In this document: piece after piece, positions 18,631-56,006 of the stretch | Layout: the number at the start of each line of letters is the position of its first letter | How positions within the stretch are numbered: position 1 is the stretch's first letter | Made by a program: the position numbers and the translations under genes | The notes under the pieces: generated by a model | Databases searched by the model: none | What the model was told of the DNA's origin: nothing | What the model saw: only the letters and a program-made list of their open reading frames with translations | From: Pseudomonadota bacterium | GTDB taxonomy: Bacteria > Desulfobacterota > Desulfobulbia > Desulfobulbales > Desulfocapsaceae | Reading direction: 5' to 3' | Length of the DNA stretch: 64,000 nucleotides | Assembly: GCA_018817385.1 (NCBI GenBank) | Contig: JAHIUA010000085.1 | Coordinates: forward strand, 21,636-85,635

Positions 18631-18888
18631 GAATAAAACTACCGCCAACTCTCTGCTGGGTCAATATTTTTTTCCAAATCCTTTCAAAAGGATGGGTGAC
18701 GCAAGATCAAGGGCCATGGCCGGGGAGAGGAAAAAAGAAACCATAAAGACAAAAAGGCAATTTAAAGATGATAAAAATTCTTTGCTTGCGTATGATGGAC
18801 AGACTGGAGCAATAGAGTCCCCAATGATGACCTCGTGTCCTTTCAGAATCAAGCCACCACCCTACCAAAACCTCACGACTTCTCCAAA

Positions 18889-21271: not shown

Positions 21272-21824
21272 GGCAATATCCTCAGCTATATTGATGGAAG
21301 GAATCAAAGCGATAACAGGCCTACGCTACCCCATCCCCTTCCATCATGGCAAGAGAAAACAGTCCGTTGCCATGTCATGTGCCACATTCCTGCCGAGACA
21401 CCATTGTTTCTCTTCTTTGAGCCTGAGCAACCGCTCTGTGGTCATGCTGGTTCAGGACCTGGAAGCTATAAGCACAATTGGGATGAACTTTCATGAAACT
21501 CGGACAGCCATGGCCTATGCCACTTCGTTGCCTGAATCCACTCCCATGTCAGCAAAGTTTATTCAGTAACCAACTCTCGTGCTTGACGGCAGGAAAGACG
21601 TTCGTTTGAGAAAAAAACAAGCGAGTCTCATTGAGAATGAGTTCACGGCTGGTGGAGACCAGCAAGGAGTTTATCACAAGCTGATCCAGGACAAAGAGTC
21701 ACCTGTTGACAATGGTCAACAGGCACTCTCAAAAAGAACTTTTTTTCATTTTTTTCAGACGGTGCTCACTCTGTGAGCACCTGCCTCTGTTACTATCCCC
21801 CTTAAGACCAAAAAGGAGGATAGG

Positions 21825-22061
21825 ATGATGAAAAAAAAGAGCTGCATCAGTCACAACCAATATCTTCAGGAATCCCTGCCGACAGGAGGCTGGGCCCAGG
21901 ACAGCCGCAACAGAAACAAATCACTCAAACGCCTGTGCCAACGCTATCAGAAAAAAATAGACAGCGCCTTGGCGGCCATGGCCATTGGCCTGATGTTCCT
22001 GGCCGGGATCTCGACATTCCTGATCCAGCTGGCTGAATTCGGCTTTAGGGCCTGTAAGTAA
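21825..22061 (+). CDS. hypothetical small membrane-anchored protein (78 aa)
   Basis: Strong SD (AAGGAGG at ~21813) and one C-terminal TM helix (AAMAIGLMFLAGISTFLIQLA). No family recognised. Confidence 0.4.
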   Translation: MMKKKSCISHNQYLQESLPTGGWAQDSRNRNKSLKRLCQRYQKKIDSALAAMAIGLMFLAGISTFLIQLAEFGFRACK

Positions 22062-22298
22062 ATAAGCGAGCTAATCCTGCATCTTCTCTTCAGGTCAGGT
22101 CTGAATGCGACTCAATCACAAAATCCTCACCGCAGCCCTGCTACGCCTGCGTTGTTTGTGCAATCGCCGCATCCAGACCTGGCCCATCTAAGCGGAATAT
22201 CAGCCGGATTATCCCTTTACTGGGTCTAAGTGACTCAGCAGTTCACTTCCCAGGTAAAACCAATCTGTCTCCACTTCCCTACCGTGACCAAAACCGAT

Positions 22299-22775
22299 TT
22301 ATCCCCGGCCAGCATTCTCCCAGGCCTCGTCCAATCGGGCCTCAACATAGCGGATTAAGCCTTCATCCCGTTCCTCAAGATCAAAACAGACGGCATCTTC
22401 GCCGAGCAGCCCCCCTGGAACAAAGTCGCCTTTTTCTTGTGGATCAGTAATCATGTCACCGTAAAAACAGACCGAAAGCCATCGCGAAGCATCTTCAATG
22501 ACATCAACCATAACAAAAAGATCTTTCCCTTTCTGATCTGCATGAACAGCTCTGAGGGAATAGGTAACACCAGGGCGCGATATGAAATCGAGGCTCACGC
22601 CCTCCTTTTGGCTCAAATAGTCCCTGAAATGGAGAAAAATTTCCTTATTATTGCCAGGTTCTTCTCTCCATTCTTCAATAAAGGTGTTCAGTTTTTGTTC
22701 TGTTTCTTCTCTCACATCCAACCCCTTTAATCCTAGAGATACTCTTATTTCAATTTCTGACCACAGCAGCCCCAT
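22299..22775 (-). CDS. hypothetical cytoplasmic protein
   Basis: Clean ORF with coding-like composition. An internal GTG at 22715 with an AAGGGG SD may be the true start. No family recognised. Confidence 0.5.
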   Translation of the reverse strand: MGLLWSEIEIRVSLGLKGLDVREETEQKLNTFIEEWREEPGNNKEIFLHFRDYLSQKEGVSLDFISRPGVTYSLRAVHADQKGKDLFVMVDVIEDASRWLSVCFYGDMITDPQEKGDFVPGGLLGEDAVCFDLEERDEGLIRYVEARLDEAWENAGRG

Positions 22776-31946: not shown

Positions 31947-34295
31947 ATGAAGAATTTTTCCAACCCCGTCAGGGTGGAAATCATCGTACTGGGCACGGTC
32001 CAGGGTGTTGGTTTTCGTCCCTTCGTCTATCGTCTGGCAAAACAGTTTGCCCTTAGCGGTACCATTGTCAATACAGACCAAGGCGTGGTCATCGAGGCAC
32101 AAGGAGAACAACATTCCATTCAAGGCTTCACCGATAGACTCTCTTCTGCACCACCGCCACTGGCCCACATCACTTCCTTACAGCAGCGCCCCTTGCCCGC
32201 CCTGAAGAAAATCACCGGGTTTTCCATCCTCACAAGCATCTGCACAGAGAGCAGCAAGACCCTCATCCCGGCCGACATTGCTCTCTGCCAGGAATGTCTT
32301 CAGGATATTCTTGACCCGAACAACAGGCGTTTTGAATACCCGTTCACCAACTGCACCAACTGTGGACCGCGCCTCACCATTGTCGAATCTATCCCCTATG
32401 ACCGTCCCAGTACCTCCATGCGCCACTTCCCCTTCTGCTCTGCCTGCAGAGAGGAATATGAAAATCCGGAAGACCGTCGATTCCATGCCCAGCCCAACGC
32501 CTGTCCGGACTGCGGACCCCAGGTTTCCTGGCATGATAACCGTGGCACCCGAGTTCCTGTCTCTTCTCCCCTGGGAGAAGCAGCTCAGGCCTTGAGACAG
32601 GGCAAGATTGTGGCCCTCAGAGGGCTGGGTGGATTTCATCTCACCGCTGCTGCAGACTTGGAGCAGGCAATAGAGAGACTGCGACAACGCAAGGGACGAA
32701 AATCAAAACCCCTGGCTGTGATGGCTGCAAACATGGCAGAGGCAGAGAGGATCTGTCACCTGAACCCTGAGGCGGTCAGCCTCCTCTCAGGAGCAGAGCG
32801 CCCCATAGTCCTCCTTCCCCGCAAGAAGGGACAACTGGTTGCGAACCTCACCCCCGGGATTGATGAAATCGGGGTTATGCTTCCTTATACCCCTCTCCAT
32901 CAGCTTCTCTTCCAGGAGAAAGAATGTCCTCAGACCCTGGTCATGACCAGCGGCAACATGAGTGGAGCCCCAATATTCACCGCCAATGATGCTGCCGTAG
33001 CTGGCCTTTCCGGGATTGCCGACTGTTTTCTTCTCCACAACAGGGAGATCGTCACCCGGGTTGATGATTCTGTGGCAAGAATCACCCCCAGAGGACCTCA
33101 ACTCCTGCGTCGAGCCCGTGGTTATGTCCCGGCAGCAACACCCCTTCCCTGGCCCTTACCACCGCTTCTGGCCTGCGGCAGCGGACTCAAATCCACCTTC
33201 TGTCTGACCCGAGATCAAGATGCCTTTCTCAGTCAACACATTGGAGACCTTTTCAACCTGGAATCACTGGATTTTTACAAGGAGAGTATCTCTCACTTCA
33301 AAAGGCTCCTCCAGGTAGAACCTGTTGCAGCGGTCTGCGACCTCCATCCCGACTACCTAAGCAGCCGTTATGCCAAGAGCCTGGATCTCCCCCTCTATGC
33401 AGTACAACACCATCACGCCCACGTAGCGGCAGTCCTGGTTGAACATGGGATTCAGGAAAAAGTTCTGGCTCTGGTCCTTGACGGAACTGGACTTGGTGAC
33501 GACAATACAGTGTGGGGAGGAGAGATTCTGGAAGCGGATTGTTTCGGCTACAGACGTATCGGCTCCCTGTCACCTATGCTTCTTCCTGGTGGAGATGCTG
33601 CAGCCCAGGCGCCATGGCGCATGGGCTTGTCCCTCATCCACCATGCCTTTGGGAGCCAGGGCATGGTGACCTGTGAGCTGCCCCAGGGACTGGAGAAGGT
33701 CGAGGAGAAAAAACGAGAGACCCTATACCAGATGATGAGCCAGGGATTCAACTGCCCTCTTACCTCCAGTTGCGGTCGCCTCTTTGATGGCATCGCAGCC
33801 CTCCTCGGCATCTGTCTGGAGGCAGACTATGAAGGTCAGGCCGCCATGGAACTGGAAGCCTTGGCCACTCAGGCAAAGGGCAAACGTCCCCTGAACGGGC
33901 TTCTTGGCCGGTGTTCCTGGAAGCCTGAGATCGAACTGATTGACAATCGCCTGGTGCTCCAGCAGACCGGGCTGATCCAACTCGTGCTGGAGCAAATGGC
34001 AGCGAGGAGAAATCCGGCAGACATTGCCCTTGAATTTCACCTCTGCCTCATTCAAAGCCTGTCTTTTTGCCTGCGCCAGCTTGCGGAAGAAACAGGGATA
34101 AGCAGGATCGTCCTTACCGGTGGCTGCATGCAGAACAGACTTCTACTTGAAGGTCTTTTTATTCTTCTGAAACAGGAAGACTTCACTGTCCATACCGGGG
34201 AAAAGATCCCGGTCAATGATGGCGGCATCTCTCTGGGACAGGTAATTATTGGAGGTTTACGCCATGTGTCTGGCAGTACCCATGAAAGTTATTGA
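31947..34295 (+). CDS. hypF: [NiFe]-hydrogenase maturation carbamoyltransferase HypF
   Basis: Acylphosphatase domain (VQGVGFRPFVYRLA), two Zn-finger motifs (CQECLQD...NCTNCGPR; CSACREEY...CPDCGP), YrdC and Kae1-like domains. Confidence 0.95.
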   Translation: MKNFSNPVRVEIIVLGTVQGVGFRPFVYRLAKQFALSGTIVNTDQGVVIEAQGEQHSIQGFTDRLSSAPPPLAHITSLQQRPLPALKKITGFSILTSICTESSKTLIPADIALCQECLQDILDPNNRRFEYPFTNCTNCGPRLTIVESIPYDRPSTSMRHFPFCSACREEYENPEDRRFHAQPNACPDCGPQVSWHDNRGTRVPVSSPLGEAAQALRQGKIVALRGLGGFHLTAAADLEQAIERLRQRKGRKSKPLAVMAANMAEAERICHLNPEAVSLLSGAERPIVLLPRKKGQLVANLTPGIDEIGVMLPYTPLHQLLFQEKECPQTLVMTSGNMSGAPIFTANDAAVAGLSGIADCFLLHNREIVTRVDDSVARITPRGPQLLRRARGYVPAATPLPWPLPPLLACGSGLKSTFCLTRDQDAFLSQHIGDLFNLESLDFYKESISHFKRLLQVEPVAAVCDLHPDYLSSRYAKSLDLPLYAVQHHHAHVAAVLVEHGIQEKVLALVLDGTGLGDDNTVWGGEILEADCFGYRRIGSLSPMLLPGGDAAAQAPWRMGLSLIHHAFGSQGMVTCELPQGLEKVEEKKRETLYQMMSQGFNCPLTSSCGRLFDGIAALLGICLEADYEGQAAMELEALATQAKGKRPLNGLLGRCSWKPEIELIDNRLVLQQTGLIQLVLEQMAARRNPADIALEFHLCLIQSLSFCLRQLAEETGISRIVLTGGCMQNRLLLEGLFILLKQEDFTVHTGEKIPVNDGGISLGQVIIGGLRHVSGSTHESY

Positions 34296-34539
34296 AATCC
34301 AGGGCAGTCCCGATGATTTCTTCTCCGACCAGATCGCTGTGGTCGATGCTGACGGCATCAGAAAAAAAACCCGCCTTGATGTCGTAGACCACTGGCCTGT
34401 TCTTGGTGACTATCTTATTATCCATGCCGGATTTGCTATCCACACCCTGGACCCGCAAGAGGCAGAGACCAATCTTCGTCTCCTCCGGGAACTTGCCGAA
34501 AATGTACTCGCTGTGGAGAATGGGGACGACAGATCATGA
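34264..34539 (+). CDS. hypC: hydrogenase assembly chaperone HypC
   Basis: Canonical MCLAVPMKV N-terminus. Overlaps the hypF 3' end. Confidence 0.9.
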   Translation: MCLAVPMKVIEIQGSPDDFFSDQIAVVDADGIRKKTRLDVVDHWPVLGDYLIIHAGFAIHTLDPQEAETNLRLLRELAENVLAVENGDDRS

Positions 34540-35618
34540 AATATCTCGATGAATTCCGAGATCAAGATCTGGCCAAACCTCTCCTTAAGGAACTGCGGCA
34601 CTCCGTGACCAGACCTTTGCGGGTGATGGAGGTTTGCGGCACTCATACCATGGCCATTTTTCGTAATGGTCTCCGATCGCTTCTTCCTGACGGACTGGAA
34701 TTAATCTCCGGCCCTGGTTGTCCTGTCTGCGTCACCTCCGCATCCCACATTGATGCCATCCTGGACATGGCCGAACGACCCCAGGTACGAATCGCCCTCT
34801 TTGGCGACCTGTTTCGAGTCCCGGGCAGCAGCGGCCTGTCCCTGGCCCATGCCTCTTCCCATGGGGCTAAAGTGGACATTGTCTACTCCCCCATGGACAG
34901 CCTCGAACTTGCCAAAAAACACCCTCAAGAGTTGGTAATTTTTCTTGGTGTCGGTTTTGAGACCACCACCCCAGGAATCGCAGCAACCATCATGGCTGCC
35001 CAAAACAGCGGTGTTGACAACTTCGCTGTCTTTTCCACCCACAAGGTCATGCCCCCTCCGCTCATCTCCCTCCTCAACGATCCTGAGCTGCAGATTGACG
35101 GACTCCTCTGCCCTGGCCATGTGAGTACTATTATCGGGGCTAGAGCCTACCAACCCCTGGTGGAAAAATACAATCTGGCCTGCGTCGTCGCGGGCTTTGA
35201 ACCGGCAGACATTCTCCAGGCCCTGATCATGCTCGCCAGACAGGTGAGCCAGGGAGAAGCCCGAGTGGAAAATGCCTATACTCGAGCTGTAAGCTGGGAA
35301 GGAAATGAGAGGGCTCAGCAGATGGTCAATAAAATTTTTGAGCCCGTTGATATGGAATGGCGCGGCCTGGGCACAATTCCGCTCAGTGGCCTGGCCATTC
35401 GCGAAAGCTGCTGCCACTTTGATGCTGAAAAAAGATTAGATATCAAGCTGATACCCGCAGCAGAACCCCCTGGCTGCCGTTGCGGAGAAATCCTCAAAGG
35501 CAAGGAACGTCCTCCCCAGTGTCCTCTATTCGGCAGCCGTTGCACCCCCGGCAACCCAGTAGGCCCCTGTATGGTCTCCAGTGAAGGAACCTGTGCCGCT
35601 TTTTATAAATACGGATGA
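34536..35618 (+). CDS. hypD: hydrogenase formation protein HypD
   Basis: MEVCGTHT, GPGCPVCV, GFETT, PCMVSSEGTC motifs. ATGA overlap with hypC. Confidence 0.95.
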   Translation: MKYLDEFRDQDLAKPLLKELRHSVTRPLRVMEVCGTHTMAIFRNGLRSLLPDGLELISGPGCPVCVTSASHIDAILDMAERPQVRIALFGDLFRVPGSSGLSLAHASSHGAKVDIVYSPMDSLELAKKHPQELVIFLGVGFETTTPGIAATIMAAQNSGVDNFAVFSTHKVMPPPLISLLNDPELQIDGLLCPGHVSTIIGARAYQPLVEKYNLACVVAGFEPADILQALIMLARQVSQGEARVENAYTRAVSWEGNERAQQMVNKIFEPVDMEWRGLGTIPLSGLAIRESCCHFDAEKRLDIKLIPAAEPPGCRCGEILKGKERPPQCPLFGSRCTPGNPVGPCMVSSEGTCAAFYKYG

Positions 35619-35653
35619 TGGCGGTTTGCGGTTTAAAATAATATATTTGTGGA

Positions 35654-36688
35654 ATGGTGTGTAAGACAATGAACCCTAAAAACAGTATTCTCCTTGATCA
35701 TGGCAGTGGTGGCATTGCCAGCCAGGAGTTGATTTCCGGACTTTTCCTCAAGCACCTGGATAATGCCGTCCTCGCCTCTCTGGAAGACAGTGCCGTACTT
35801 GACAACCATCCAGGAAAGCTGGCCTTTAGTACAGACAGTTATGTCGTTGATCCGATCTTTTTTCCGGGCGGAGATATCGGTACCCTGGCCGTTCATGGTA
35901 CCATCAATGATCTGGCCATGCGTGGCGCCCGCCCTCTCTGTCTCAGCCTGGCACTGATCCTGGAAGAGGGACTGGATCTGGATGATCTTGAACGTGTCAT
36001 CGTCTCCATTGGAACTGCCTGCAAAGAATCCGGGGTCCCCATTGTCACCGGCGACACCAAAGTCGTTCCCAGAGGGAAAGCCGATAAAATTTTCATTAAC
36101 ACTTCCGGCATCGGGATTATCGCAGAGAAGGTCAACATCTCCTCCACCATGGCTCGGGCAGGCGATGTTATTATCCTCTCCGGTTCCATGGCAGACCATG
36201 GGATCACCATCATGACCCGTCGCGCCGGGATCAGCCTCGATGGAGACCTTGCCAGTGATTCAGCCTCCCTTCATGAACTGGTGGCCCTCCTCCTTGACGG
36301 CCTTCCCCCCGGCAGCCTGCATACCCTCCGTGATCCGACTCGAGGCGGGGTGGCCACTTCACTGAATGAAATTGCCGCAGCCGCTCGCCTCATGGCCGAA
36401 ATTGAGGAAACAGCCATCCCGGTACACAAAGGGGTACGTGCTGCCTGCGAGATCATGGGCCTGGATCCACTTTACCTGGCCAATGAAGGAAAGTGCCTTG
36501 TTATTGTTGCTCCCGAGCAGGCAGAGGAAACGCTAAGCCTGATGCGGTCCACTTCCGTGGGAAAAGAAAGTGCTATTATCGGCAGCCTGAAGACAGGAAC
36601 AGCAGGCCAGGTTGTCCTCCGAACAGGCATAGGTGGTTCCAGAATCATCACTCCCCTGCATGGAGAACCTCTGCCCAGAATCTGTTAA
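35654..36688 (+). CDS. hypE: hydrogenase expression/formation protein HypE
   Basis: LDHGSGG, PurM-like fold motifs, C-terminal PRIC. Confidence 0.95.
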   Translation: MVCKTMNPKNSILLDHGSGGIASQELISGLFLKHLDNAVLASLEDSAVLDNHPGKLAFSTDSYVVDPIFFPGGDIGTLAVHGTINDLAMRGARPLCLSLALILEEGLDLDDLERVIVSIGTACKESGVPIVTGDTKVVPRGKADKIFINTSGIGIIAEKVNISSTMARAGDVIILSGSMADHGITIMTRRAGISLDGDLASDSASLHELVALLLDGLPPGSLHTLRDPTRGGVATSLNEIAAAARLMAEIEETAIPVHKGVRAACEIMGLDPLYLANEGKCLVIVAPEQAEETLSLMRSTSVGKESAIIGSLKTGTAGQVVLRTGIGGSRIITPLHGEPLPRIC

Positions 36689-36697
36689 GGAGCCAGA

Positions 36698-37225
36698 ATG
36701 GACAACGAAAACAAAAAGACTGGAATTCTCGGAATCGGCAATCTGCTCCTTTCTGACGAGAGCTTTGGAATCCATGTTACCCGTTATCTTGAGGCACAGT
36801 ACCGTTTTCCCGATTCCGTCACTATCCTTGACGGAGGAACAGCAGGCATCTACATGGCACCCTTTATTGAAACCCATGACCCGGTGTTTGTGGTTGATGT
36901 GGTCAACCTCAAGGGTGCAGCTCCCGGCAGTCTCTATACCTTCACGGCCGATGAGGCCAGAAATGGCTCCATGCAGAGCCGAATGTCACCCCATCAATTG
37001 GGAATTTTAGACATACTTGATATCTGTAAGCTGCGCGACATCAGTCCTGAAACCGTGGAATTTTTCTGTGTAGTCCCGGAAAGCCTGGCAACCGGACTTG
37101 AAATGTCTGCTTCAGTGGCAGCACAAATTGGAAAAATTGGCGATCTTCTCGTCCAACGACTTAAGGGACTGGGCCACACCATAGATCCACAGATGATCAA
37201 AAGGGAGAAACGCTGTCATGCATGA
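36698..37225 (+). CDS. hydrogenase maturation endopeptidase (HyaD/HybD/HoxM family)
   Basis: ILGIGNLLLSDESFG, DGGTAG, SPHQLG motifs. Confidence 0.85.
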   Translation: MDNENKKTGILGIGNLLLSDESFGIHVTRYLEAQYRFPDSVTILDGGTAGIYMAPFIETHDPVFVVDVVNLKGAAPGSLYTFTADEARNGSMQSRMSPHQLGILDILDICKLRDISPETVEFFCVVPESLATGLEMSASVAAQIGKIGDLLVQRLKGLGHTIDPQMIKREKRCHA

Positions 37226-37562
37226 GATGTCACTGGTTCAGGGCCTCCTCAACCAGCTTCACGATCTGGCCCGAGAGCACAATAAGACAAAGGTCATCAG
37301 CGTGTGTATGGATATCGGCCCCCTTTCCGGGGTGGTCATGGACTCATTTCAATTCGGCTTTGATATCCTCTCTCAAGAAAACCCATTGACCCGGGGCGCC
37401 AGACTGGAGATAGTCAGTTCCCCCGTCATCTACCGCTGCAGTGGCTGTGACGCCAAAATAGAGGAAGAATCGAAACCACAGGCCTGTCCGGCCTGCTCCG
37501 AAACCCTTCTCTATCCGGAAGGGGGGGATGATATAATCCTGCGTCAGGTTCAGATGGAATAA
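37218..37562 (+). CDS. hypA: hydrogenase nickel incorporation protein HypA
   Basis: MHEMSL N-terminus (Ni site) and CSGC...CPAC zinc site. Confidence 0.9.
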   Translation: MHEMSLVQGLLNQLHDLAREHNKTKVISVCMDIGPLSGVVMDSFQFGFDILSQENPLTRGARLEIVSSPVIYRCSGCDAKIEEESKPQACPACSETLLYPEGGDDIILRQVQME

Positions 37563-37728
37563 CAGTTGCTTTTCACTGAGAGTCAATCCTCTCCCTGATG
37601 CGCAAAGGAAATGCAAGGGAAACAAAACGGTACAATGGAGGATTGCCCATTTAAGGGCAACCTATGCTAATTCGATTTCTGCTAACAGGCCGCCTCGGCT
37701 GCCATATTTTTTTAAACAAGGTGTATTT

Positions 37729-38463
37729 ATGTGCGATTCATGCGGCTGTGATTTGAACCACGGCCACTCCCACGACCATTCCCATGACCATTCCCACGAT
37801 GCAAAGGTGATTGAAGTCCACCAGAGCCTGCTTGCTGCCAACACGGCCATGGCAGAAAAAAACAGGGCCCATATTGAAAAGATGGGGGCAGTAGCCATCA
37901 ACATGATTTCCAGCCCTGGTTCGGGAAAAACGACGCTCCTGGAAAAGACCATTGAAGCCATTGGAGACAGCCTCAGAATCGGTGTCATAGAGGGAGATAT
38001 CGAAACAGACAGGGATGCCGCACGCATTCGGGCCAAGGGAGTCCCCGTGATCCAGCTCACCACCGGCGGGGCCTGTCACCTGGACGCAGCCCTGGTCCAC
38101 AAAGGGCTGCATCTCCTGGAGAAAGAACCGGGCGGAGACCAACTCGACCTCCTCGTTATTGAAAACGTGGGCAACCTGGTCTGCCCGGCCACCTTTGACT
38201 TGGGAGAACATCACCGCATAGTCCTGGTTTCGGTCCCGGAAGGACCGGACAAACCGGCAAAATACCCCAAGGCCTTTATCAGCTCCCAGGTCTTCATTAT
38301 TTCCAAGACCGATCTCCTTCCCTACTTTGACTTCCCGGTTGAGGAGGCCAGGGCCGAGGCCTTGCAGCTGAACCCCAAATTGCTGGTCATGGACCTTTCT
38401 GCCACCAGCGGCCAAGGGTTCGAGCAGTGGTTGGACTATTTAAAAGGAATATGCCGCAAATAA
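37729..38463 (+). CDS. hypB: hydrogenase nickel incorporation GTPase HypB
   Basis: MCDSCGC high-affinity site, HGHSHDHSHDHSHD His-rich stretch, GSGKTTLL P-loop, ENVGNLVCP. Confidence 0.95.
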   Translation: MCDSCGCDLNHGHSHDHSHDHSHDAKVIEVHQSLLAANTAMAEKNRAHIEKMGAVAINMISSPGSGKTTLLEKTIEAIGDSLRIGVIEGDIETDRDAARIRAKGVPVIQLTTGGACHLDAALVHKGLHLLEKEPGGDQLDLLVIENVGNLVCPATFDLGEHHRIVLVSVPEGPDKPAKYPKAFISSQVFIISKTDLLPYFDFPVEEARAEALQLNPKLLVMDLSATSGQGFEQWLDYLKGICRK

Positions 38464-46144: not shown

Positions 46145-46927
46145 ATGAACATTCCCATTGTCATAACTGCATTTGGCACAACCTCCAGAGCCCTGAGCAC
46201 CTATTCTTTTCTCGATACATTGATCCGGAACCGTTTTCCCGAACACGAAGTTTTGTGGAGCTTTTCTTCTCGAGCCATCACCGCAGAAAGAAAAGGCACT
46301 AATGCGTTAGGGCACCCTGCCCCAGAGTTTGTCCTTCAACAACTCAGTGAACAGGGACACAAGTACGCAATACTCCAGTCCGCACACCTGTGGCCTGGTC
46401 ACGAATTTCATAAACTTGTCAAGATAGGACACCGCTGTCCCCTCACCGTTTCCCTGGGTATGCCCCTGCTCAGCTCCCCTCTTGATTATGAAAAACTCTG
46501 TCCCTGCCTGGACAACATTGCCCATGCGCACAAGAACCGAGCCCTGATTATTGCTGGCCATGGAACCAGTCATCCGGCATGGAGCGGATATTTTGCCTTG
46601 GATCATTTTCTCCGTAAACGTTTTGGCAATCATATATTTATGGCCCTGCTCAAGGGCTACCCAACTCCAGCAGAAATGATCCAACAGGTCAAAGATGCCG
46701 GCTTTGACTCTGCCTGTCTACTTCCCTTCATGCTCGTAGCAGGCAGACATTTTGAGCGAGAGTTGACCGGGTCCGGTCCTGATTCATGGCAGTCGCAATT
46801 GTCCAGGGCAGGAATTTCCCTCCAGGCCATAGATCATGGCCTGGGAATGATGGAGGGAGTGGCAGAGATTTTTTGCGATCACATCAGCGAAGCACTGGCT
46901 CATGCCCATCTCTCTGACAGCAGATAA
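46145..46927 (+). CDS. cbiK: sirohydrochlorin cobaltochelatase CbiK (cytoplasmic paralogue)
   Basis: IVITAFGTT, WSFSSRAI, AGHGTSH, LVAGRHF motifs. No signal peptide. Confidence 0.8.
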   Translation: MNIPIVITAFGTTSRALSTYSFLDTLIRNRFPEHEVLWSFSSRAITAERKGTNALGHPAPEFVLQQLSEQGHKYAILQSAHLWPGHEFHKLVKIGHRCPLTVSLGMPLLSSPLDYEKLCPCLDNIAHAHKNRALIIAGHGTSHPAWSGYFALDHFLRKRFGNHIFMALLKGYPTPAEMIQQVKDAGFDSACLLPFMLVAGRHFERELTGSGPDSWQSQLSRAGISLQAIDHGLGMMEGVAEIFCDHISEALAHAHLSDSR

Positions 46928-48096: not shown

Positions 48097-48534
48097 CTAG
48101 CACAACTGGTCCAGATTTTTTATGAAATCTCGTATCTCCAGACAAACTCGTCGATAACAGGCCAACTTAGCTTCCTCACTGCTGGCATCTTTGGCCAGTT
48201 GCGGGGGATCATCAAAGCCGTGATGAATGACTTTCGTGGTCCCTGGAAACAGAGGACAATTCTCATCCGCATGACCGCAGACGGTGATCACCAGATCAAA
48301 ATCCTGGCCCGCCAGCTCATCCACATGTTTTGACCAGTGCTTGCTGATATCCACTCCCGCTTCCTGCATGACCCTGACCGCCATGGGATTCAGGCCATGC
48401 ACCTCTATGCCCGCAGACCAGACATCAATCCGCTCACCATGGAGGTGGCGAGCCCAGCCCTCGGCCATCTGACTGCGACAGGAGTTGCCAGTACAGAGAA
48501 AGAGGATTTTTTTTCGTTTTCCAATCATGAGCAT
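48097..48534 (-). CDS. arsC: arsenate reductase, thioredoxin-coupled LMW-PTPase type
   Basis: LFLCTGNSCRSQMAEG (P-loop Cys) and VITVCGHADENCP (the Cys82/Cys89 equivalents). Confidence 0.9.
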   Translation of the reverse strand: MLMIGKRKKILFLCTGNSCRSQMAEGWARHLHGERIDVWSAGIEVHGLNPMAVRVMQEAGVDISKHWSKHVDELAGQDFDLVITVCGHADENCPLFPGTTKVIHHGFDDPPQLAKDASSEEAKLACYRRVCLEIRDFIKNLDQLC

Positions 48535-48547
48535 CCAATTATTTTTC

Positions 48548-48775
48548 TCAAGAGATGGGAATCGGTACCCCAAGTATCTCGTTCACCGCCCGGCGAACAT
48601 CAGCCAGACATCATTTCCCCTTTGGATTTAAATCCTTGCAGTGACACCTGCCGGCGCGAGAAGAGGATATGATCTCTTCCATGATGGTGGACCTGCCATT
48701 TTTTCTGATATCCTGCTCAATATCTTCGCGGCTGTGGGAAAAGCAATAACAGAGTAATTCTTCTTTTGTCTCCAT
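48548..48775 (-). CDS. candidate selenoprotein: 75-codon Cys-rich BFD/CopZ-zinc-finger-like protein with in-frame TGA (codon 55)
   Basis: Not in the ORF track. AAGGAGAG SD lies 6 nt before the ATG at 48775. Sequence is METKEELLCYCFSHSREDIEQDIRKNGRSTIMEEIISSSRAGRCHCKDLNPKGK-TGA-CLADVRRAVNEILGVPIPIS-stop. The second stop is 14 nt before the arsC start. A hairpin lies downstream of the TGA. Confidence 0.5.
48581..48598 (-). promoter_or_regulatory. SECIS-like hairpin
   Basis: GUUCGCC-GGGC-GGUGAAC, a 7-bp stem including one G-U. It begins 13 nt after the UGA at 48613-48611, and its G-rich tetraloop lies 20-23 nt downstream. Confidence 0.4.
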
Positions 48776-48894
48776 GAAAATCTCTCCTTATATCGATCCC
48801 GGACTGTTACCTTACCCTGAAGGGAAAGACCAAAGCCCTACGGCCTGCAGCACCTTAATCTTTTCCCCCAGTATTTCGACTCAGTTTCAACATG

Positions 48895-49911
48895 TTACAT
48901 CATGTTACCAAAACTTCCCGTTCCCTTTCTGATCCGTTCAAGCTGATCTGCCAGATCACCTATCTCAGCCTGCCAATATTCCGCCGACCCAAAGCCGGGA
49001 ACAATGGGGGCAGTACCGTCAGCCAGATACTGATAGGTCAGCCAGGCAATATAATGCAGGAAACGCATGGCACGCAGGGGCTCAATAAGGCGAAAGCTGC
49101 GGCGATCGAAATGATGGAAGGTCTCATAGCCCTCGAGAAAGAGGTCAATTTCGAGGAGCGATTCCTCAGGAACTCCGGGAAGGAGCATCCACAGGTCCTG
49201 GACCGGCAGTCCCATGCACATGTCGTCAAAATCAATGAGAAAAAAGGACTCTCCAGGGCGATGGATGATATTGGAAAAATGACAGTCCCCGTGAATTCTA
49301 CTCAGGGTCATCCCCTTGAACAGGGGAGTAATTTCAGCAATGAGTTCCTCGCACAGGGAGGAAAATCGGGCAGCCGTCTCCGCTTGGCCAATGACTCCGC
49401 CCTCCAGAATAAAACGTACCTGCTCACGGGTGGAATGGTTCGGCACCATCTGCAGCCTCTCTTTTGCAGGATGAATAGCCCCCACTGCATGGCAGCGACC
49501 AAGCAGACGTCCTATCTCCAGCCACTGATCTTCGTTGAATTCATCATAACTACGGCCCCCGCAACGGGGAAAAACAGTGAAGCAGAGGCCCTCATGCTCA
49601 CCAAGGGTTCTCCCATTGGCCAGGGTTAAGGGCGGGATTACCGGAATCTCGCGCTGGTGCAGCTCGAGGAGGAAATCGTGTTCATCCTCTAATGCAGTTT
49701 TTGACCAACGGCCCGGCCTGTAAAATTTCACCACCAGCCCTCTTCCGTCCACGGCCTTCAGCTCAAAAACCCGGTTGATATAGCTGTTAAATTGCCTGCA
49801 GAGATTCGTACATGGGATCCCAAGACCCGCTTCCACAATATTGAGCACGGTGTCTGGCCCAAGTTCCGGAAAAGCTCCGGGATGTTGTCTCTTTTTCTTC
49901 TTGTCAATCAT
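48895..49911 (-). CDS. srkA: stress-response serine/threonine kinase SrkA/YihE (aminoglycoside phosphotransferase fold)
   Basis: NRVFEL, KFYRPGRW, IHGDCHFSNI, LIDFDD motifs. Confidence 0.85.
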   Translation of the reverse strand: MIDKKKKRQHPGAFPELGPDTVLNIVEAGLGIPCTNLCRQFNSYINRVFELKAVDGRGLVVKFYRPGRWSKTALEDEHDFLLELHQREIPVIPPLTLANGRTLGEHEGLCFTVFPRCGGRSYDEFNEDQWLEIGRLLGRCHAVGAIHPAKERLQMVPNHSTREQVRFILEGGVIGQAETAARFSSLCEELIAEITPLFKGMTLSRIHGDCHFSNIIHRPGESFFLIDFDDMCMGLPVQDLWMLLPGVPEESLLEIDLFLEGYETFHHFDRRSFRLIEPLRAMRFLHYIAWLTYQYLADGTAPIVPGFGSAEYWQAEIGDLADQLERIRKGTGSFGNMM

Positions 49912-52853: not shown

Positions 52854-55800
52854 TCAAGGCAGGGAAAGAAAACGGAACTCCGATCTCACCGTTTTCACTC
52901 TGTTTTCCCAGAGCGGACACTGTTTGCGAATACACTCCCGGTTTTTGGGATACTGGCCACAGCGGAGTATCCCCTGTGCCTCCATGGTCACAGGCAGGAT
53001 CTGGGCTGAAAGTCTGGCTGTTTCAGTGAGGGCAATCCATGTCTCACGCTGGCAGCAGCGGCCGCCACGGTAGTGGGCAATGGCTGCCAGGACCTTTGCG
53101 CTGAAAGCCTGGGCAGTCTGTCGGGATAGGGGAGTCAGGGGGGTGGCCGCCAGGATGGTGGCCACCGCTATCCCGGCACCAACGGCTGCCCCGCAGGCCC
53201 CCCAGAAGCCACAGACCCCGCCGGGGATATCGGCCCCTCGACTGATCCCACTCAAAATACTCTCGGTCTTGAGTGCTCCCCCGCAGTTCCGATAACAGGC
53301 CAGGATGATACCCGGAATCATGGCATGGTGCTCCGGGCCATGCATGGGGATGGCCGGATGACTGCGAATCAGCTCGAGCAAGGTGAGAAGATCTTTCTCC
53401 ATCGTAGTAGTGCAAATCGCTTTAATCACCTCGATTCCGTTTTCCTGGTGACAGCTGTCACAGACAAAATGGTCCTGGCCACAGCAACCGTTGGCTGACT
53501 GGACACGTCCGCAGTAGCTGCAGCACATATCCCGAAAATCGGTGAAGTATTGCAGTTCGCCGCCACAGACCATACAGCCTTCACCTTTTCGTTCTTTCTC
53601 CGGCAGCTCTTCTCCACTGTCACAACACCCTCCCTTTTCAGGTGCACAGCAACTCTGGACTGCACCGATCTCTGCCTGCGGAGCACAACAGGAATTCTCC
53701 ATCACCAAGTTGGTCACTGCCCCTTTGCCATCAAGGACAAAGACAGAGTCATCGAGCAAAGCCACCTCTGCTGCCGGAAGAGACGTACGTCTCCCCTTGA
53801 CCAGAAGGATGCCGGATGCCGTATGCACTGCCCCAAAGGGGCCTCTGTAGACCACGTCCACCTTCCCCTTTGCCTTAGCGGAAAAGGGCGGCCGTTCCGC
53901 CTGATAGGTGAGTGAAAAAAAATCCATACCCTCGACCTGGCGATAGGGAAACCGTTTGAGTAAGCGGATGGAAGTAAACCCTGCCGCCTCCATCATGGCC
54001 ACCAGTTCCTCCTGCTGCATGGCCCCACCCAGACATTCGCCCCGATAGCGGATGTTGTTCCTGATTCCTGGGGGAATAGCCGTGTCAGTGACAATATCTG
54101 AGACCACAACCCTGCCTCCCGGCCTGAGGATACGAAAAATTTCCTGGTAGGTCATCCGCTTGTCAGGACTGAGATTGATTACGCAGTTGGAGATGACCAC
54201 ATCCGCCACCCCATCGTCCAGAGGGATCTGCTCAAGAAATCCTTTACGGAATTCTACATTGGCATAGCCCAGCCGCCCTGCCACCTCTGCTCGGGCCTCG
54301 TTGGCCAGGTGCAGCATTTCATCTGTCATATCAATCCCGTACACCTTACCACCCTGGCCAACCGCAGAAGAGGCCATGAAACACTCGACCCCGGAACCAG
54401 AACCGAGGTCAACCAGGGTCTCTCCCTCTTGCGGGCCACCATCGGTCACCGGGCTGCCGCAGCCGTAGGAACGCTTCCGGGTTTCACCGGGAATAAAATC
54501 CGCCTCTGCCTGGGCAGGAGCAAGGGGATTGATGATATCCTCATTGGCAGCCACTGCTGCCTGGCCATAAAATTCTCGAACCGAATTGTGTCCAAGTCCA
54601 GAAGCCAGAGATATAAGACAGTTGCAGTGGGTCAAGTCCACTGCAGAACTGCTTTCTGCATCAGGACAATCATGGCGGACATCTCCCATGCGCAGGCGGA
54701 TGGCACTCTTTTCCTGACGCCGGTAGCGATTGGCCTGATCGATAATGAGCTGGAGGGCAAGTCGATTATAGAGCTCCACATAGGGGTCATGCCCCACCCA
54801 CTGTCCACTGTGCATGAAACTGTGGTCAATATCGCCACCGCCCACCAGAAACTTGAGTGGATTGAGTTGATAGGCAGGCGAATCAATCAGAGAACTGCGG
54901 CGCAGTTCTTCCAGGACCGGACTCGTCTGCCAGACCTCTGCCAATCCCTGCTCCAGACTGCCGCAGGCACATTCCTCCAGACCAACCAGGGCCGGCGAAG
55001 GATAGATTGTATTATCCGGTCCCACAGCCAGAGATTCCCAACCGGTGTTAGAGAGGTCATAACGGGTGCCCGGGGTAGAAAAGACCTGGCTGCGCAAGGT
55101 CTCGACATTATCGATGCTCAGGCCCAGTTCCTCTGCCCGCCGCCAGGCGGCAAGAAACTGAGGAAAGATGGTATCGCAGTCAATAAACTGCTCCCGGCTC
55201 CCCTTTCCCCGAATAAAGTGATAGAGGAGATGGATACTTGCGGCCCCCACTCCTGCGGCCACCTCCACCAGCTGCGGCAGGTCCTCTATATTTTCCCGAC
55301 TGAGCGCCACCGAAAGGGTGAACGGAATCCCAGCCCCCTGCAGGGCGCGAAGGTTTCCCATGAGTTTCCGGTGGGTTCCTTTCCCCCGCAACCTGTCATG
55401 GGCAGCCTCCATCCCGTCAAGACTCACCTGGAGATGGAGACGGTCTATGCCCTTGAGTTCATCAAGATACCTCTCCAGCAACATACCATTGGTCAGAATG
55501 GCAACATGGACATCCGGGTTGCTCTGCAGCAGCCCGTGCAGGAAAGGAAGAAAATCAGGATAGAGAAAGGGCTCGCCTCCGGTGAAAGAAAAGAGACGAC
55601 ACCCCAGAACCAGGGCCTGATCCACCGTCTCCTGAAGACGTTCAGGTGCGAGACTGCGTGTTTTGGCAGGGGAGGCGGCAAAGAGACAGTGATGACAGCT
55701 CAGATTGCAGGCGTCGGTGAGATGAAACCAGCACTCTTTGAGACGATCCAGGTGCAGCGCCGAGGCCCGTCCCCGATAGGGGCGCATGGGCTCTACCTCC

Positions 55801-56006
55801 AGAGCCGCAACAAGCCGATCCTGGGCATAAAAAGTGTCAGAACCCTGGCAGCCGCTCCTCAGCAAACGGTCACTTGCGGCAGAGACAACGATCCAGTCCG
55901 GAATATCCGCTTGGACGTAGAGCGCCTGTCCTTCCCATTCAAGACGCTGCCAGCCCAGGGTCTCGGCAAGGGTTTTTTCAACTCTATTTTTTTCCATTTC
56001 CATCAA
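52854..56006 (-). CDS. multidomain fusion: radical SAM + degenerate SPASM-like + ArsM-type SAM methyltransferase + vicinal-Cys linker + Cys-rich C-terminal domain (1,050 aa)
   Basis: aa 100-107 CNLSCHHC, FTGGEPF, LTNG, SLDG (rSAM). aa 513-660 SYGCGSP, LVDLGSGSG, GIDMT, ISNCVINLSPDK, GECLGGA (ArsM). aa 773-795 three CC pairs. aa 811-852 CMVCGG/CCSYCG/CDSCH. aa 855-1030 helical Cys-rich domain (HGPEHH, GFWGACGA), DUF5714-like from memory. Confidence 0.85.
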   Translation of the reverse strand: MMEMEKNRVEKTLAETLGWQRLEWEGQALYVQADIPDWIVVSAASDRLLRSGCQGSDTFYAQDRLVAALEVEPMRPYRGRASALHLDRLKECWFHLTDACNLSCHHCLFAASPAKTRSLAPERLQETVDQALVLGCRLFSFTGGEPFLYPDFLPFLHGLLQSNPDVHVAILTNGMLLERYLDELKGIDRLHLQVSLDGMEAAHDRLRGKGTHRKLMGNLRALQGAGIPFTLSVALSRENIEDLPQLVEVAAGVGAASIHLLYHFIRGKGSREQFIDCDTIFPQFLAAWRRAEELGLSIDNVETLRSQVFSTPGTRYDLSNTGWESLAVGPDNTIYPSPALVGLEECACGSLEQGLAEVWQTSPVLEELRRSSLIDSPAYQLNPLKFLVGGGDIDHSFMHSGQWVGHDPYVELYNRLALQLIIDQANRYRRQEKSAIRLRMGDVRHDCPDAESSSAVDLTHCNCLISLASGLGHNSVREFYGQAAVAANEDIINPLAPAQAEADFIPGETRKRSYGCGSPVTDGGPQEGETLVDLGSGSGVECFMASSAVGQGGKVYGIDMTDEMLHLANEARAEVAGRLGYANVEFRKGFLEQIPLDDGVADVVISNCVINLSPDKRMTYQEIFRILRPGGRVVVSDIVTDTAIPPGIRNNIRYRGECLGGAMQQEELVAMMEAAGFTSIRLLKRFPYRQVEGMDFFSLTYQAERPPFSAKAKGKVDVVYRGPFGAVHTASGILLVKGRRTSLPAAEVALLDDSVFVLDGKGAVTNLVMENSCCAPQAEIGAVQSCCAPEKGGCCDSGEELPEKERKGEGCMVCGGELQYFTDFRDMCCSYCGRVQSANGCCGQDHFVCDSCHQENGIEVIKAICTTTMEKDLLTLLELIRSHPAIPMHGPEHHAMIPGIILACYRNCGGALKTESILSGISRGADIPGGVCGFWGACGAAVGAGIAVATILAATPLTPLSRQTAQAFSAKVLAAIAHYRGGRCCQRETWIALTETARLSAQILPVTMEAQGILRCGQYPKNRECIRKQCPLWENRVKTVRSEFRFLSLP

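What the first reader, a model, noticed from the sequence alone, without database searches (positions are those of the whole stretch)
48548..48775. Unannotated small ORF upstream of arsC with in-frame UGA at a Cys-Cys position and a SECIS-like hairpin: candidate selenoprotein
Seen in sequence: the ATG at 48775 has an AAGGAGAG SD 6 nt upstream. The ORF reads METKEELLCYCFSHSREDIEQDIRKNGRSTIMEEIISSSRAGRCHCKDLNPKGK, then TGA (48613-48611), then continues in frame as CLADVRRAVNEILGVPIPIS to a TGA at 48550-48548. That second stop lies only 14 nt before the arsC ATG. Starting 13 nt after the first UGA is GUUCGCC-GGGC-GGUGAAC (48598-48581), a 7-bp stem with a G-rich tetraloop 20-23 nt downstream. This fits the generic bacterial SECIS geometry. 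Established knowledge and memory: the CxC...CxC...NP.G.CC pattern occurs in small BFD-like/CopZ-zinc-finger-like metal-binding proteins, where the position of the UGA is the first Cys of a CC pair. Sec/Cys exchange at redox or metal-binding Cys is the hallmark of bacterial selenoproteins, which are common in Desulfobacterota. Inference: this is a U-C containing metal/metalloid-binding partner of thioredoxin-type ArsC.
Basis: partly seen in the sequence, partly recalled or inferred. Interest (0 to 1): 0.7.

Follow-up and report, generated by a model that had tools for sequence, protein, structure and literature searches.

The report
Small iron-sulfur selenoprotein beside arsC
The small gene upstream of arsC very probably encodes a 75-residue selenocysteine-containing iron-sulfur protein whose UGA is read through with help from a conserved RNA hairpin, but it belongs to a selenoprotein family that is already catalogued, so it is a correct yet fairly ordinary find.

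Summary
ORF 48775-48548 (-) has an in-frame TGA at 48613-48611, 20 more in-frame codons, and a hairpin at 48598-48581.

It is far more than chance. Among 150 distant homologues plus the window's own product (151 sequences), 106 end exactly at this position, 27 have Cys-Cys there and 4 have 'WC'. All eight independently sampled 'truncated' homologues stop at TGA and continue as C-[LMV]-x-[DE]-V-R. A DNA pattern across the UGA found at least 120 genomic copies, all in this family and mostly in Desulfobacterota.

The hairpin is kept at 92% pairing, against 30-60% in slid controls. It shows a compensatory C-G/U-A switch and near-frozen synonymous sites inside the stem. It meets the published bacterial SECIS criteria.

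The product is a BFD-like / CopZ-N-terminal-like [2Fe-2S] domain, with Sec at the first Cys of the 'CC' pair.

Two reviews already list this family: '(2Fe-2S)-binding protein, CopZ family, form 1, GxUC'. So this is a new member of a known kind. GenBank and RefSeq annotate members as truncated 51-54 aa proteins.

A link to arsenic or metal resistance recurs but is not universal (24 of 120 loci). The function is unknown. Sec machinery could not be checked, because the window holds none.

The parts
48782..48789 (-). Shine-Dalgarno-like AAGGAGAG, 6 nt upstream of the ATG
   Evidence: Read directly from the sequence.
48548..48775 (-). Full selenoprotein CDS: 75 residues (Met1 to Ser75) plus the terminal TGA. 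Cys9, Cys11, Cys44, Cys46, Sec55, Cys56.
   Evidence: Translation. NCBIfam NF047645 scores 54.8 bits for the read-through against 40 bits for the truncated form. Homologues continue past the UGA.
48611..48613 (-). In-frame UGA read as selenocysteine (residue 55), in the motif G-K-U-C
   Evidence: Aligned to Cys in 27 Cys-form homologues and to the point where 106 of 151 sequences end. It is TGA in all sampled homologues. It aligns with the first Cys of the CC pair of 2hu9.
48551..48610 (-). Post-UGA coding extension, CLADVRRAVNEILGVPIPIS (residues 56-75). It carries Cys56 and a predicted C-terminal helix.
   Evidence: C-[LIM]-x-[DE]-V-R-x-[VA]-x is conserved in 120 of 120 genomic copies and in the pattern-independent samples. 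In the AF2 model of a Cys-form ortholog, a confident helix follows the CC pair directly.
48581..48598 (-). bSECIS-type hairpin: 5' arm 48598-48592, loop GGGC 48591-48588, 3' arm 48587-48581. There are 19 nt between the UGA and the loop.
   Evidence: 92.2% of cells pair, against 30-60% in slid controls, with 19 double-sided changes (0 of 500 shuffles reach this). Pair 17:30 is C-G 93, U-A 23, U-G 6, C-U 1, C-A 0. Stem third-codon positions carry 0.07-0.21 bits, against 1.6-1.9 bits outside the stem. Energy is -8.6 to -10.1 kcal/mol.
48097..48534 (-). Thioredoxin-type (LMWPc) arsenate reductase arsC. It starts 13 nt after the selenoprotein stop and is probably co-transcribed.
   Evidence: Pfam LMWPc 5.4e-19 and TIGR02691 3.1e-44 (150 bits, below its cut-off of 174). 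No terminator-like site lies between the two genes. The same gene pair is found in L006 and in the syntenic L064.

Best explanation
The ORF at 48775-48548 (-) is one gene for a 75-residue selenoprotein. The hairpin at 48598-48581 lies inside the coding sequence, 12 nt after the UGA. By analogy with characterised bacterial SECIS elements, it recruits SelB with Sec-tRNA(Sec), so that the UGA at 48613-48611 is decoded as selenocysteine and translation runs on to the TGA at 48550-48548.

The product is a stand-alone BFD-like / CopZ-N-terminal-type domain. It belongs to the catalogued selenoprotein family '(2Fe-2S)-binding protein (CopZ family) form 1, motif GxUC'.

Inferred, not shown: Cys9, Cys11, Cys46 and Cys56 hold a [2Fe-2S] cluster, as the aligned cysteines do in A. 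fulgidus CopZ-NT. Sec55, possibly together with Cys44, sits beside the cluster as the reactive site, acting in redox chemistry or in binding soft metals or metalloids.

The gene is very probably co-transcribed with the thioredoxin-type arsC 13 nt downstream. Its most likely role is in arsenic or soft-metal detoxification, either handling As(III) as a selenol/thiol chaperone or passing electrons. That role is the weakest step.
For: Recoding:
- 106 of 151 sequences end exactly at the U position, 27 have CC and 4 have WC.
- Eight independent homologues, picked without any DNA pattern, all stop at TGA and continue in frame as C[LMV]x[DE]VR.
All 120 lie at the end of a family-type domain.
- There are near-identical Sec/Cys ortholog pairs, for example P0218 against L118.
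- TGA is a normal stop for 14 of 31 long ORFs in the window.
- Identical DNA occurs in two other assemblies.

SECIS:
- Pairing, covariation and frozen synonymous sites support the stem.
- All four published bSECIS constraints are met.

Family:
- NF047645 gives 1.2e-14 over model positions 83-137, and the extension adds 15 bits.
- The family profile hits 2hu9 at E = 9.8e-4, with U aligned to the first C of CC.
- A Cys-form ortholog folds with pLDDT 89.7, with a helix right after the CC pair. The top structural neighbour is Bfd.
- Reviews list the family with the motif GxUC.

Context: an adjacent LMWPc arsC, ArsP_1, ArsR, Acr3, ArsD/ArsA, MerA-like, MerT and HMA fusions recur.
Against: - No selA, selB, selC or selD and no tRNA are present in the 64-kb window. 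Sec competence of this genome is inferred only from the intact UGA, SECIS and extension, and from the lineage of the relatives.
- No Rfam SECIS family matched.
- In the window sequence a competing hairpin is slightly more stable.
- Pfam Fer2_BFD is below its gathering score (20.9 against 26 bits). The Foldseek matches to Bfd are not significant (E = 1.6).
- Cluster binding and the ligand assignment rest on alignment plus my recollection of the 2HU9 paper, which could not be read.
- Most family loci (96 of 120) show no ars gene within three ORFs, so an arsenic-specific role is not general.
- No experimental datum exists for any member.
Confidence: 0.85

Rival explanations
1. The UGA is a true stop. 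The gene encodes only the 54-aa protein that GenBank annotates, and the downstream 60 nt are an untranslated spacer before arsC.
For: This is how GenBank, RefSeq and metagenome gene callers annotate this gene and its homologues. TGA is a frequent stop in this genome.
Against: The truncated product would lack Cys56, which is invariant in all full-length relatives, and the helix that follows it. The 'spacer' keeps an open frame of 12-40 codons with a conserved C-L-x-[DE]-V-R motif in more than 120 genomes. Cys-form orthologs read straight through. The read-through scores 15 bits more than the truncated form against NF047645.
Confidence: 0.03
2. The UGA is recoded, but not as Sec. Candidates are Trp or Gly under an alternative genetic code, near-cognate Cys or Trp read-through, or a hairpin that merely stimulates generic stop-codon read-through.
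For: Some database entries show W at this position. Sec machinery could not be shown for this genome.
Against: The window uses TGA as a stop in 14 of 31 long ORFs, including aspS, hisS and hypF, so no code reassignment is in play. The aligned residue in non-TGA homologues is Cys (27 cases), never a genuine TGG Trp in any locus examined at DNA level. The hairpin meets the SelB-type bSECIS geometry with G-G/U in the loop. Carriers are almost all Desulfobacterota; that this is a Sec-rich clade rests on established knowledge and the cited reviews, not on a test run here.
Confidence: 0.03
3. It is a selenoprotein, but not an arsenic-specific partner of ArsC. It would be a general small Fe-S redox or soft-metal (Hg, Cu, Cd) handling module that sits next to arsC in this lineage by operon shuffling.
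For: 96 of 120 loci have no ars gene nearby, and 375 of 539 neighbouring ORFs are singletons. Other contexts include MerR, MerT, MerA-like oxidoreductases, MoeA, HMA fusions and thioredoxin/DsbD-like genes. The solved relative is part of a copper chaperone.
Against: ars genes are the single most frequent theme: ArsP_1 11, ArsR 10, ArsC 9, Acr3 6 and ArsM-like 4 loci, plus an Acr3-ArsD-ArsA-Trx-[gene] operon. The gene-arsC pair is conserved between the window, L006 and L064 despite 60-80% protein divergence.
Confidence: 0.35

Closest known systems
[quoted passage not shown] 2022 (PMC9312934) and 2026 (PMC13188914)
   Same: Same domain assignment (CopZ-like Fer2_BFD-like) and the same Sec motif: the window has G-K-U-C.
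   Different: Nothing differs in kind; the window gene is one more member. The example sequence could not be fetched for a direct comparison. The paper the reviews cite (GOS 2008) does not describe the family in its main text. No function or experiment is reported. The arsC adjacency and the SECIS covariation shown here are not in those lists.
NCBIfam NF045877, CopZ_Nterm_CU, 'Csac_0668 family 2Fe-2S cluster-binding (seleno)protein' (form 2)
   Same: Homologous C-terminal Cys-rich domain, with Sec inside the same Cys pair.
   Different: Sec is the second residue of the pair (C-U) there and the first (U-C) here. That family is about 161 aa with an N-terminal zinc-ribbon part which the window protein lacks. 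The score is 27 bits against a cut-off of 190.
NCBIfam NF047645, CopZ_Nterm_CC, 'putative iron-sulfur cluster-binding metallochaperone', and the A. fulgidus CopZ N-terminal domain (PDB 2HU9)
   Same: The CxC ... C ... NPxGxCC arrangement aligns residue for residue. The A. fulgidus domain binds a [2Fe-2S] cluster and mediates Cu(II) reduction.
   Different: Those proteins are Cys forms of about 130-140 aa, with an extra zinc-binding N-terminal half and, in A. fulgidus, a fused HMA domain. The window protein is only the C-terminal half (model positions 83-137), has Sec for the first Cys of the pair and has an extra Cys44.
Bacterioferritin-associated ferredoxin Bfd / Pfam Fer2_BFD (PF04324)
   Same: Small helical [2Fe-2S] domain starting with CxC. 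It is the top structural neighbour of the model (TM 0.52-0.64), and there is a sub-threshold Pfam hit.
   Different: Bfd uses CxC...CxxC and has no CC or UC pair. The Pfam score is below the gathering threshold and the Foldseek E-value is not significant. Bfd works with bacterioferritin, which is not in this context.
Bacterial SECIS elements (E. coli fdhF/fdnG type; bSECIS consensus model)
   Same: A stem-loop immediately downstream of the UGA inside the CDS, with a 4-nt loop starting G-G, a 7-bp stem and 19 nt spacing. All model constraints are met.
   Different: Compared with my recollection of the fdhF element (not checked here), this one is short and has no bulged U. No Rfam covariance model recognises it. 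The family consensus loop is A/G-G-G-U, and the window has the minority GGGC.
ArsD arsenic metallochaperone (functional analogy only)
   Same: A small Cys-rich protein encoded in ars operons. That ArsD hands As(III) to an efflux system is established knowledge. One family member sits in an Acr3-ArsD-ArsA-Trx operon.
   Different: No sequence relationship. ArsD has no Fe-S cluster or Sec. The analogy is inference only.

Membership tests
Bacterial selenoprotein gene (Sec-UGA plus bSECIS) | The in-frame UGA aligns with Cys in homologues (a Sec/Cys pair) | tested here: met
   27 CC-form homologues, and close ortholog pairs such as P0218 (Cys) against L118 (TGA).
Bacterial selenoprotein gene (Sec-UGA plus bSECIS) | The reading frame and protein sequence downstream of the UGA are conserved | tested here: met
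   C-[LIMV]-x-[DE]-V-R... is found in 8 of 8 pattern-independent homologues and in 120 of 120 genomic hits.
Bacterial selenoprotein gene (Sec-UGA plus bSECIS) | bSECIS model: loop 3-9 nt, upper stem 4-16 bp, G in the first two loop positions, 16-37 nt between UGA and loop, MFE <= -7.5 kcal/mol (PMC13188914) | tested here: met
   Loop GGGC (4 nt), 7-bp stem, 19 nt spacing, -8.6 kcal/mol (18-mer) or -10.1 kcal/mol in context. Conserved with covariation.
Bacterial selenoprotein gene (Sec-UGA plus bSECIS) | The genome encodes selA, selB, selC (tRNA-Sec) and selD | not testable with these tools
   None of these is in the 64-kb window.
Bacterial selenoprotein gene (Sec-UGA plus bSECIS) | Selenium is incorporated into the protein | not testable with these tools
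   This needs an experiment (75Se labelling or MS).
(2Fe-2S)-binding protein (CopZ family) form 1 selenoprotein | Sec motif GxUC | tested here: met
   Residues 53-56 are G-K-U-C. The motif is as listed.
(2Fe-2S)-binding protein (CopZ family) form 1 selenoprotein | CopZ-like Fer2_BFD-like domain (cd10141) | tested here: inconclusive
   CDD was not available. The proxies agree: NF047645 at 1.2e-14 over its C-terminal domain, 2hu9 at E = 9.8e-4 with the family profile, and Pfam Fer2_BFD at 20.9 bits, below its GA of 26.
NCBIfam NF047645 CopZ_Nterm_CC (equivalog) | Whole-protein score >= 100 bits over the full 138-position model, including the N-terminal zinc-binding half | tested here: not met
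   54.8 bits, and only model positions 83-137 are matched. The window protein has no N-terminal half.
NCBIfam NF045877 CopZ_Nterm_CU (Csac_0668 family) | Score >= 190 bits, with Sec as the second residue of the pair (CU) | tested here: not met
   27 bits. The window has U-C, not C-U.
Pfam PF04324 Fer2_BFD | Score at or above the gathering threshold (26 bits) | tested here: not met
   20.9 bits for the read-through and 23.3 bits for the truncated form. The structural neighbour is Bfd, but at E = 1.6.
[2Fe-2S] cluster protein | Four conserved Cys ligands in the CopZ-NT arrangement | tested here: met
   C9, C11, C46 and C56 align with C75, C77, C109 and C119 of 2hu9 and are invariant in the family. 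Which of them ligate the cluster in 2HU9 is from my memory of Sazinsky et al. 2007, which could not be read.
[2Fe-2S] cluster protein | The protein actually binds an Fe-S cluster | not testable with these tools
   This needs purified protein (UV-vis, EPR).

The most novel reading that the evidence does not exclude
Sec55, with the family-specific Cys44, forms a selenol/thiol site in direct contact with the [2Fe-2S] cluster. The 75-residue protein would then be a new type of cluster-coupled selenium centre. It could capture As(III) from ArsC and hand it to ArsP- or Acr3-type exporters. Alternatively it could re-reduce thioredoxin-type ArsC in one-electron steps without thioredoxin. Either way it would be an Fe-S/selenium module dedicated to metalloid detoxification that has been overlooked because gene callers truncate it almost everywhere.
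Probability: 0.15. Interest if true: 0.6.

Novelty: new member of a known kind. Interest (0 to 1): 0.3.

Why it matters
For this window, it corrects an annotation. MBU0946137.1 (54 aa) should be a 75-residue selenoprotein with U at position 55.

More broadly, the session shows that this catalogued but uncharacterised family is large. There are 1517 clusters at 90% identity with E <= 1e-5, and at least 120 TGA-containing copies in species-representative genomes. Public records annotate it as truncated: the three exact-sequence look-ups, two of them RefSeq, gave 51-aa proteins, and none of the 120 best family hits is named a selenoprotein. NCBIfam has models only for the two sibling forms.

The family also carries an unusually clean, short SECIS whose stem visibly constrains synonymous codon positions. 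That makes it a convenient model for SECIS-coding overlap.

Its recurring placement in ars and mer-like operons, and its fusions with HMA domains, give a testable lead on what selenium does next to an Fe-S cluster in metal and metalloid resistance. None of this changes a concept, because the kind of element is known.

Tried and rejected
- **Rfam:** the gathering scan of the window and a permissive scan of 48400-48900 found no SECIS family, only chance hits at E > 1.
- **Single-sequence folding:** z = -1.4, and the MFE uses a different hairpin (4-10 / 19-25 after the UGA). I tested that alternative across the family and rejected it. Its median energy is -4.3 against -10.1 kcal/mol, and there is no synonymous-site constraint (position 8 carries 1.69 bits).
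- **Word-indexed protein search:** the read-through peptide found only the gene's own truncated product.
- **The search for related loci:** the 38-sequence alignment was too divergent, so I used a degenerate DNA pattern instead. That pattern forces N-P..G..TGA-C..[DE]-V-R and is biased by construction. Pattern-independent samples were therefore added.
- **Sec machinery:** there is no tRNA, selA, selB or selD in the window.
- **Other Sec candidates in the window:** none of the 77 in-frame-TGA-near-Cys sites other than this one looked real. Two sites at 21375-21551 lie in a stretch with stops in all frames.
- **Literature:** the GOS 2008 paper, cited by both reviews for this family, does not list it. 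Peng 2016 has nothing on it. Haft 2023, Haft 2025 and Sazinsky 2007 are not held.
- **Single-sequence PDB search:** not significant for 2hu9 (E = 1). The profile search was needed.
- **Foldseek:** matches are weak.
- **Promoter and terminator scan:** uninformative.
Full report
**What is in the sequence.** On the minus strand an ATG at 48775 is preceded by AAGGAGAG (48789-48782) with a 6-nt spacer. The frame reads METKEELLCYCFSHSREDIEQDIRKNGRSTIMEEIISSSRAGRCHCKDLNPKGK, then TGA (48613-48611), then CLADVRRAVNEILGVPIPIS, then TGA (48550-48548). The first ATG of a thioredoxin-type LMWPc arsenate reductase follows 13 nt later, at 48534 (Pfam LMWPc 5.4e-19; TIGR02691 3.1e-44). Two Logan assemblies from other samples (L001, L002) are identical over 451 nt including the TGA, so it is not an assembly error. 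TGA ends 14 of the 31 longest ORFs of the window, among them aspS, hisS, hypF and hypD. The organism therefore uses the standard code, and any recoding is local.

**Is it more than chance?** On the window alone the case is weak. The 44-66 nt after the UGA fold no better than shuffles (z = -1.4). The MFE uses a different hairpin. No Rfam family matches. The comparative evidence settles it.

An exhaustive HMMER search with the 54-aa product found 536 representatives at E <= 1e-3. I classified 151 sequences: the best 150 hits plus the window's own product. Of these, 106 end exactly at the residue before the UGA position, typically ...NPKGR or ...NPKGK. Another 27 carry Cys-Cys there and continue CCLG[DE]V.... 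Four continue W-C-L-x-D-V-R, which is TGA called as Trp.

I then fetched the contigs of eight such 'truncated' homologues, chosen without reference to their DNA. They include divergent HP-type variants. Every one stops at TGA and continues in frame as C-[LMV]-x-[DE]-V-R-[RQ]-... for 15-28 codons.

My information-content estimate of the chance expectation is about 4. In 110 of the 120, the full CxC...CxC...NPxxx domain lies immediately upstream. The other ten are cut by a contig end or carry a variant Cys, so there are no chance hits. Near-identical Sec/Cys ortholog pairs exist, for example P0218 ...NPKGRCCLADVRQVVDRTLGR against L118 ...NPKGR-TGA-CLADVRQVVDRTLGR.

**The hairpin.** Positions are numbered with the U of UGA as 0. 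The stem pairs 15-21 with 26-32, and the loop is 22-25. Across 123 distinct sequences, 74 have 7 of 7 pairs, 42 have 6 of 7 and 7 have 5 of 7.

The stem lies in codons for V-R-[RQ]-V-V-[DN], so amino-acid conservation alone would give some pairing. The informative sites are the synonymous ones. Third-codon positions inside the stem are almost frozen: position 20 is C in 119 and U in 4, and position 29 is G in 122 of 123 (0.21 and 0.07 bits). Third positions outside the stem carry 1.6-1.9 bits.

Position 17 is a four-fold degenerate Val site, yet it is only ever C or U, and it covaries with position 30, the first base of the Asp or Asn codon. The counts are C-G 93, U-A 23, U-G 6, C-U 1 and C-A 0 (Fisher p about 1e-19; this is inflated by relatedness, but the Asn variants are scattered among otherwise dissimilar sequences). 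The window itself carries the U-A version.

The pair counter gives 92.2% of cells paired, against 30-60% with partners slid by 1-3 columns. It finds 19 double-sided changes, which 0 of 500 shuffles reach.

The competing MFE hairpin of the window (4-10 with 19-25) is not supported.

Against the published bSECIS model, the window element has a 4-nt loop GGGC, a 7-bp stem, 19 nt between UGA and loop, and -8.6 to -10.1 kcal/mol. The model requires a loop of 3-9 nt, a stem of 4-16 bp, G in the first two loop positions, 16-37 nt spacing and MFE <= -7.5 kcal/mol, so all four constraints are met. The family loop consensus is A/G-G-G-U, and the window's GGGC is a minority form (6 of 123).

A further hint comes from the Cys forms, which need no SECIS. 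They keep C-L-G-[DE]-V but not the following R-x-V-V-D. The extra conservation in the Sec forms is therefore plausibly imposed by the RNA.

**What the protein is.** With Cys substituted for U, the 75-residue product hits NCBIfam NF047645, CopZ_Nterm_CC ('putative iron-sulfur cluster-binding metallochaperone'), at 1.2e-14 and 54.8 bits. The match covers only model positions 83-137 of 138. The truncated form scores 40 bits, so the extension contributes. The product also hits NF045877, CopZ_Nterm_CU ('Csac_0668 family 2Fe-2S cluster-binding (seleno)protein'), at 3.6e-6. Both are far below their curated cut-offs, because the window protein lacks the N-terminal zinc-binding half. Pfam Fer2_BFD is just below its gathering score.

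A profile of the family finds the A. fulgidus CopZ N-terminal domain, 2hu9, at E = 9.8e-4. In that alignment C9/C11 match C75/C77, C46 matches C109, and U55-C56 matches C118-C119. That domain binds an Fe-S cluster and mediates Cu(II) reduction. From my recollection of Sazinsky et al. 2007, which is not held, the cluster ligands are C75, C77, C109 and C119. C118, the position of the Sec, would be the spare cysteine next to the cluster. This point is memory, not a tool result.

C44 is invariant in the family but absent from the A. fulgidus protein. The domain therefore has two residues beyond the four presumed ligands, C44 and U55.

AlphaFold2 on a 70-aa Cys-form ortholog (P0180) gives mean pLDDT 89.7 and pTM 0.75. 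A confident helix (residues 54-65) starts right after the CC pair. The post-UGA tail is thus an integral part of the fold, and a product ending at residue 54 would lack both it and an invariant Cys. Foldseek ranks P. aeruginosa Bfd first (TM 0.52-0.64), but without statistical significance.

**Context.** In the window the gene is followed after 13 nt by arsC, with no terminator-like site between them. The same pair occurs in L006 and in L064, a syntenic relative whose CbiK-like, GNAT, Lcl_C-like and ArsC genes are 62-82% identical at protein level.

I clustered the three ORFs on each side of the gene in the 120 genomic loci and named the clusters with Pfam:

| Neighbour | Loci |
|---|---|
| ArsP_1 permease | 11 |
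| ArsR | 10 |
| LMWPc ArsC | 9 |
| MerA-like pyridine-nucleotide disulfide oxidoreductase with C-terminal CC | 9 |
| Acr3 | 6 |
| Thioredoxin_3 | 5 |
| PF04060 FeS | 5 |
| ArsM-like methyltransferase | 4 |
| MerT | 3 |
| MerR | 3 |

Of the 120 loci, 24 have at least one ars gene and 43 have some metal or redox gene. However, 375 of 539 neighbouring ORFs are singletons. One divergent member sits in an Acr3-ArsD-x-ArsA-thioredoxin-[gene]-DsbD-like operon. Another sits in arsR-arsC-ArsP-[gene]. Fusions with HMA domains exist.

For a single gene family, a 7-9% rate of adjacency to arsC or ArsP is well above what a random gene would show. My rough estimate for a random gene is below 1%. Still, it is a minority theme, so the 'ArsC partner' idea is a lead rather than a finding.

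[quoted passage not shown] The window protein has G-K-U-C, so it is a form-1 member.

Both reviews cite the GOS 2008 paper for these families. Its main text lists seven other new families and never mentions this one. I could not find a primary description, and no experimental work is cited.

Public annotation truncates members. Exact-sequence look-ups of the predicted products of three family loci found each as a 51-aa protein. They are WP_136815760.1 ('BFD-like (2Fe-2S) protein', Desulfopila sp. IMCC35006), a Maridesulfovibrio cluster with WP_320176400.1 ('hypothetical protein'), and HID70995.1 ('hypothetical protein', Desulfobacterales MAG). None of the best 120 of 1517 family clusters is named a selenoprotein. 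NCBIfam has no model that reaches its cut-off for form 1.

**Verdict.** The element is a genuine Sec-UGA/SECIS unit in a small BFD-like Fe-S protein. It is a new, mis-annotated member of an already catalogued selenoprotein family, so it is not surprising to a specialist.

Several things remain open. Sec competence of this genome could not be tested here. Fe-S binding is unproven. So is the chemical role of a selenol next to the cluster, and so is any real functional link to arsenate reduction.

Noticed in passing
P0175, P0189, P0198, P0202, P0207, P0214 (metagenome proteins, not in the window): Fusion proteins of about 170 aa, HMA (PF00403) plus this domain, read 'GMTWxGWE' where HMA domains have GMTCxxC, and 'NPKGRWCLADVR' at the Sec site. 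If each W is a TGA called as Trp, these would be three-Sec proteins, HMA(UxxU)-BFD(UC). This was not checked at DNA level.
   Followed up: no
window 52854-56006 (-): A 1050-aa fusion of a radical SAM domain, an ArsM-like Methyltransf_31 domain and DUF5714, about 4 kb upstream of the selenoprotein-arsC pair on the same strand. It may be organoarsenic-related, but it is separated from the pair by unrelated genes (APH-like kinase, RNase H, 5'-nucleotidase).
   Followed up: partly
window 18415-18640 (-): A cobalamin riboswitch (Rfam RF00174, 103.5 bits), placed upstream of the ORF at 17318-18301 (-). That ORF was not scanned against any family library. A separate gene at 46145-46927 (+) carries the Pfam CbiK family in the precomputed annotation of the identical contig L001.
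   Followed up: no
window 21307-22299: About 1 kb with stops in every frame and no ORF of 66 aa or more lying within it (a 131-aa plus-strand ORF at 21174-21569 overlaps its left edge). It lies between an ORF with several CxxCH motifs that looks like a multihaem cytochrome by eye (20888-21307, -) and the ORF at 22299-22775 (-). Two in-frame TGAs near Cys/His residues there do not look coding. It could hold a regulatory region or a non-coding RNA; Rfam found nothing.
   Followed up: partly
window 31947-38463 (+): A run of ORFs that look, by eye from their translations, like a complete hydrogenase maturation cluster (hypF, hypC, hypD, hypE, maturation protease, hypA, hypB). They were not scanned against any family library. 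No hydrogenase structural genes are in the window.
   Followed up: no
L132/L133 3001-3162; L003/L004: Family members sit inside full ars operons: Acr3-ArsD-x-ArsA-thioredoxin-[gene]-DsbD_TM and ArsR-ArsC-ArsP_1-[gene]-x-DsbD_TM. A DsbD-like membrane protein recurs immediately downstream.
   Followed up: partly
public annotation of L077, L018, L028 and the window gene: Exact-sequence look-ups of the predicted products of L077, L018 and L028 found each in the collection as a 51-aa protein: WP_136815760.1, a cluster with WP_320176400.1, and HID70995.1. The window product is held as 54 aa (MBU0946137.1). Annotation therefore truncates the family at the Sec codon. Both reviews cite GOS 2008 for the family, but that paper's main text does not mention it.
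   Followed up: yes
P0064, P0092, P0228, P0278: A few homologues have Arg or Gly at the Sec position (R-C-L... or G-C-L...). CGA and GGA are each one base change from TGA. These could be real substitutions, sequencing variants or decaying copies.
   Followed up: no
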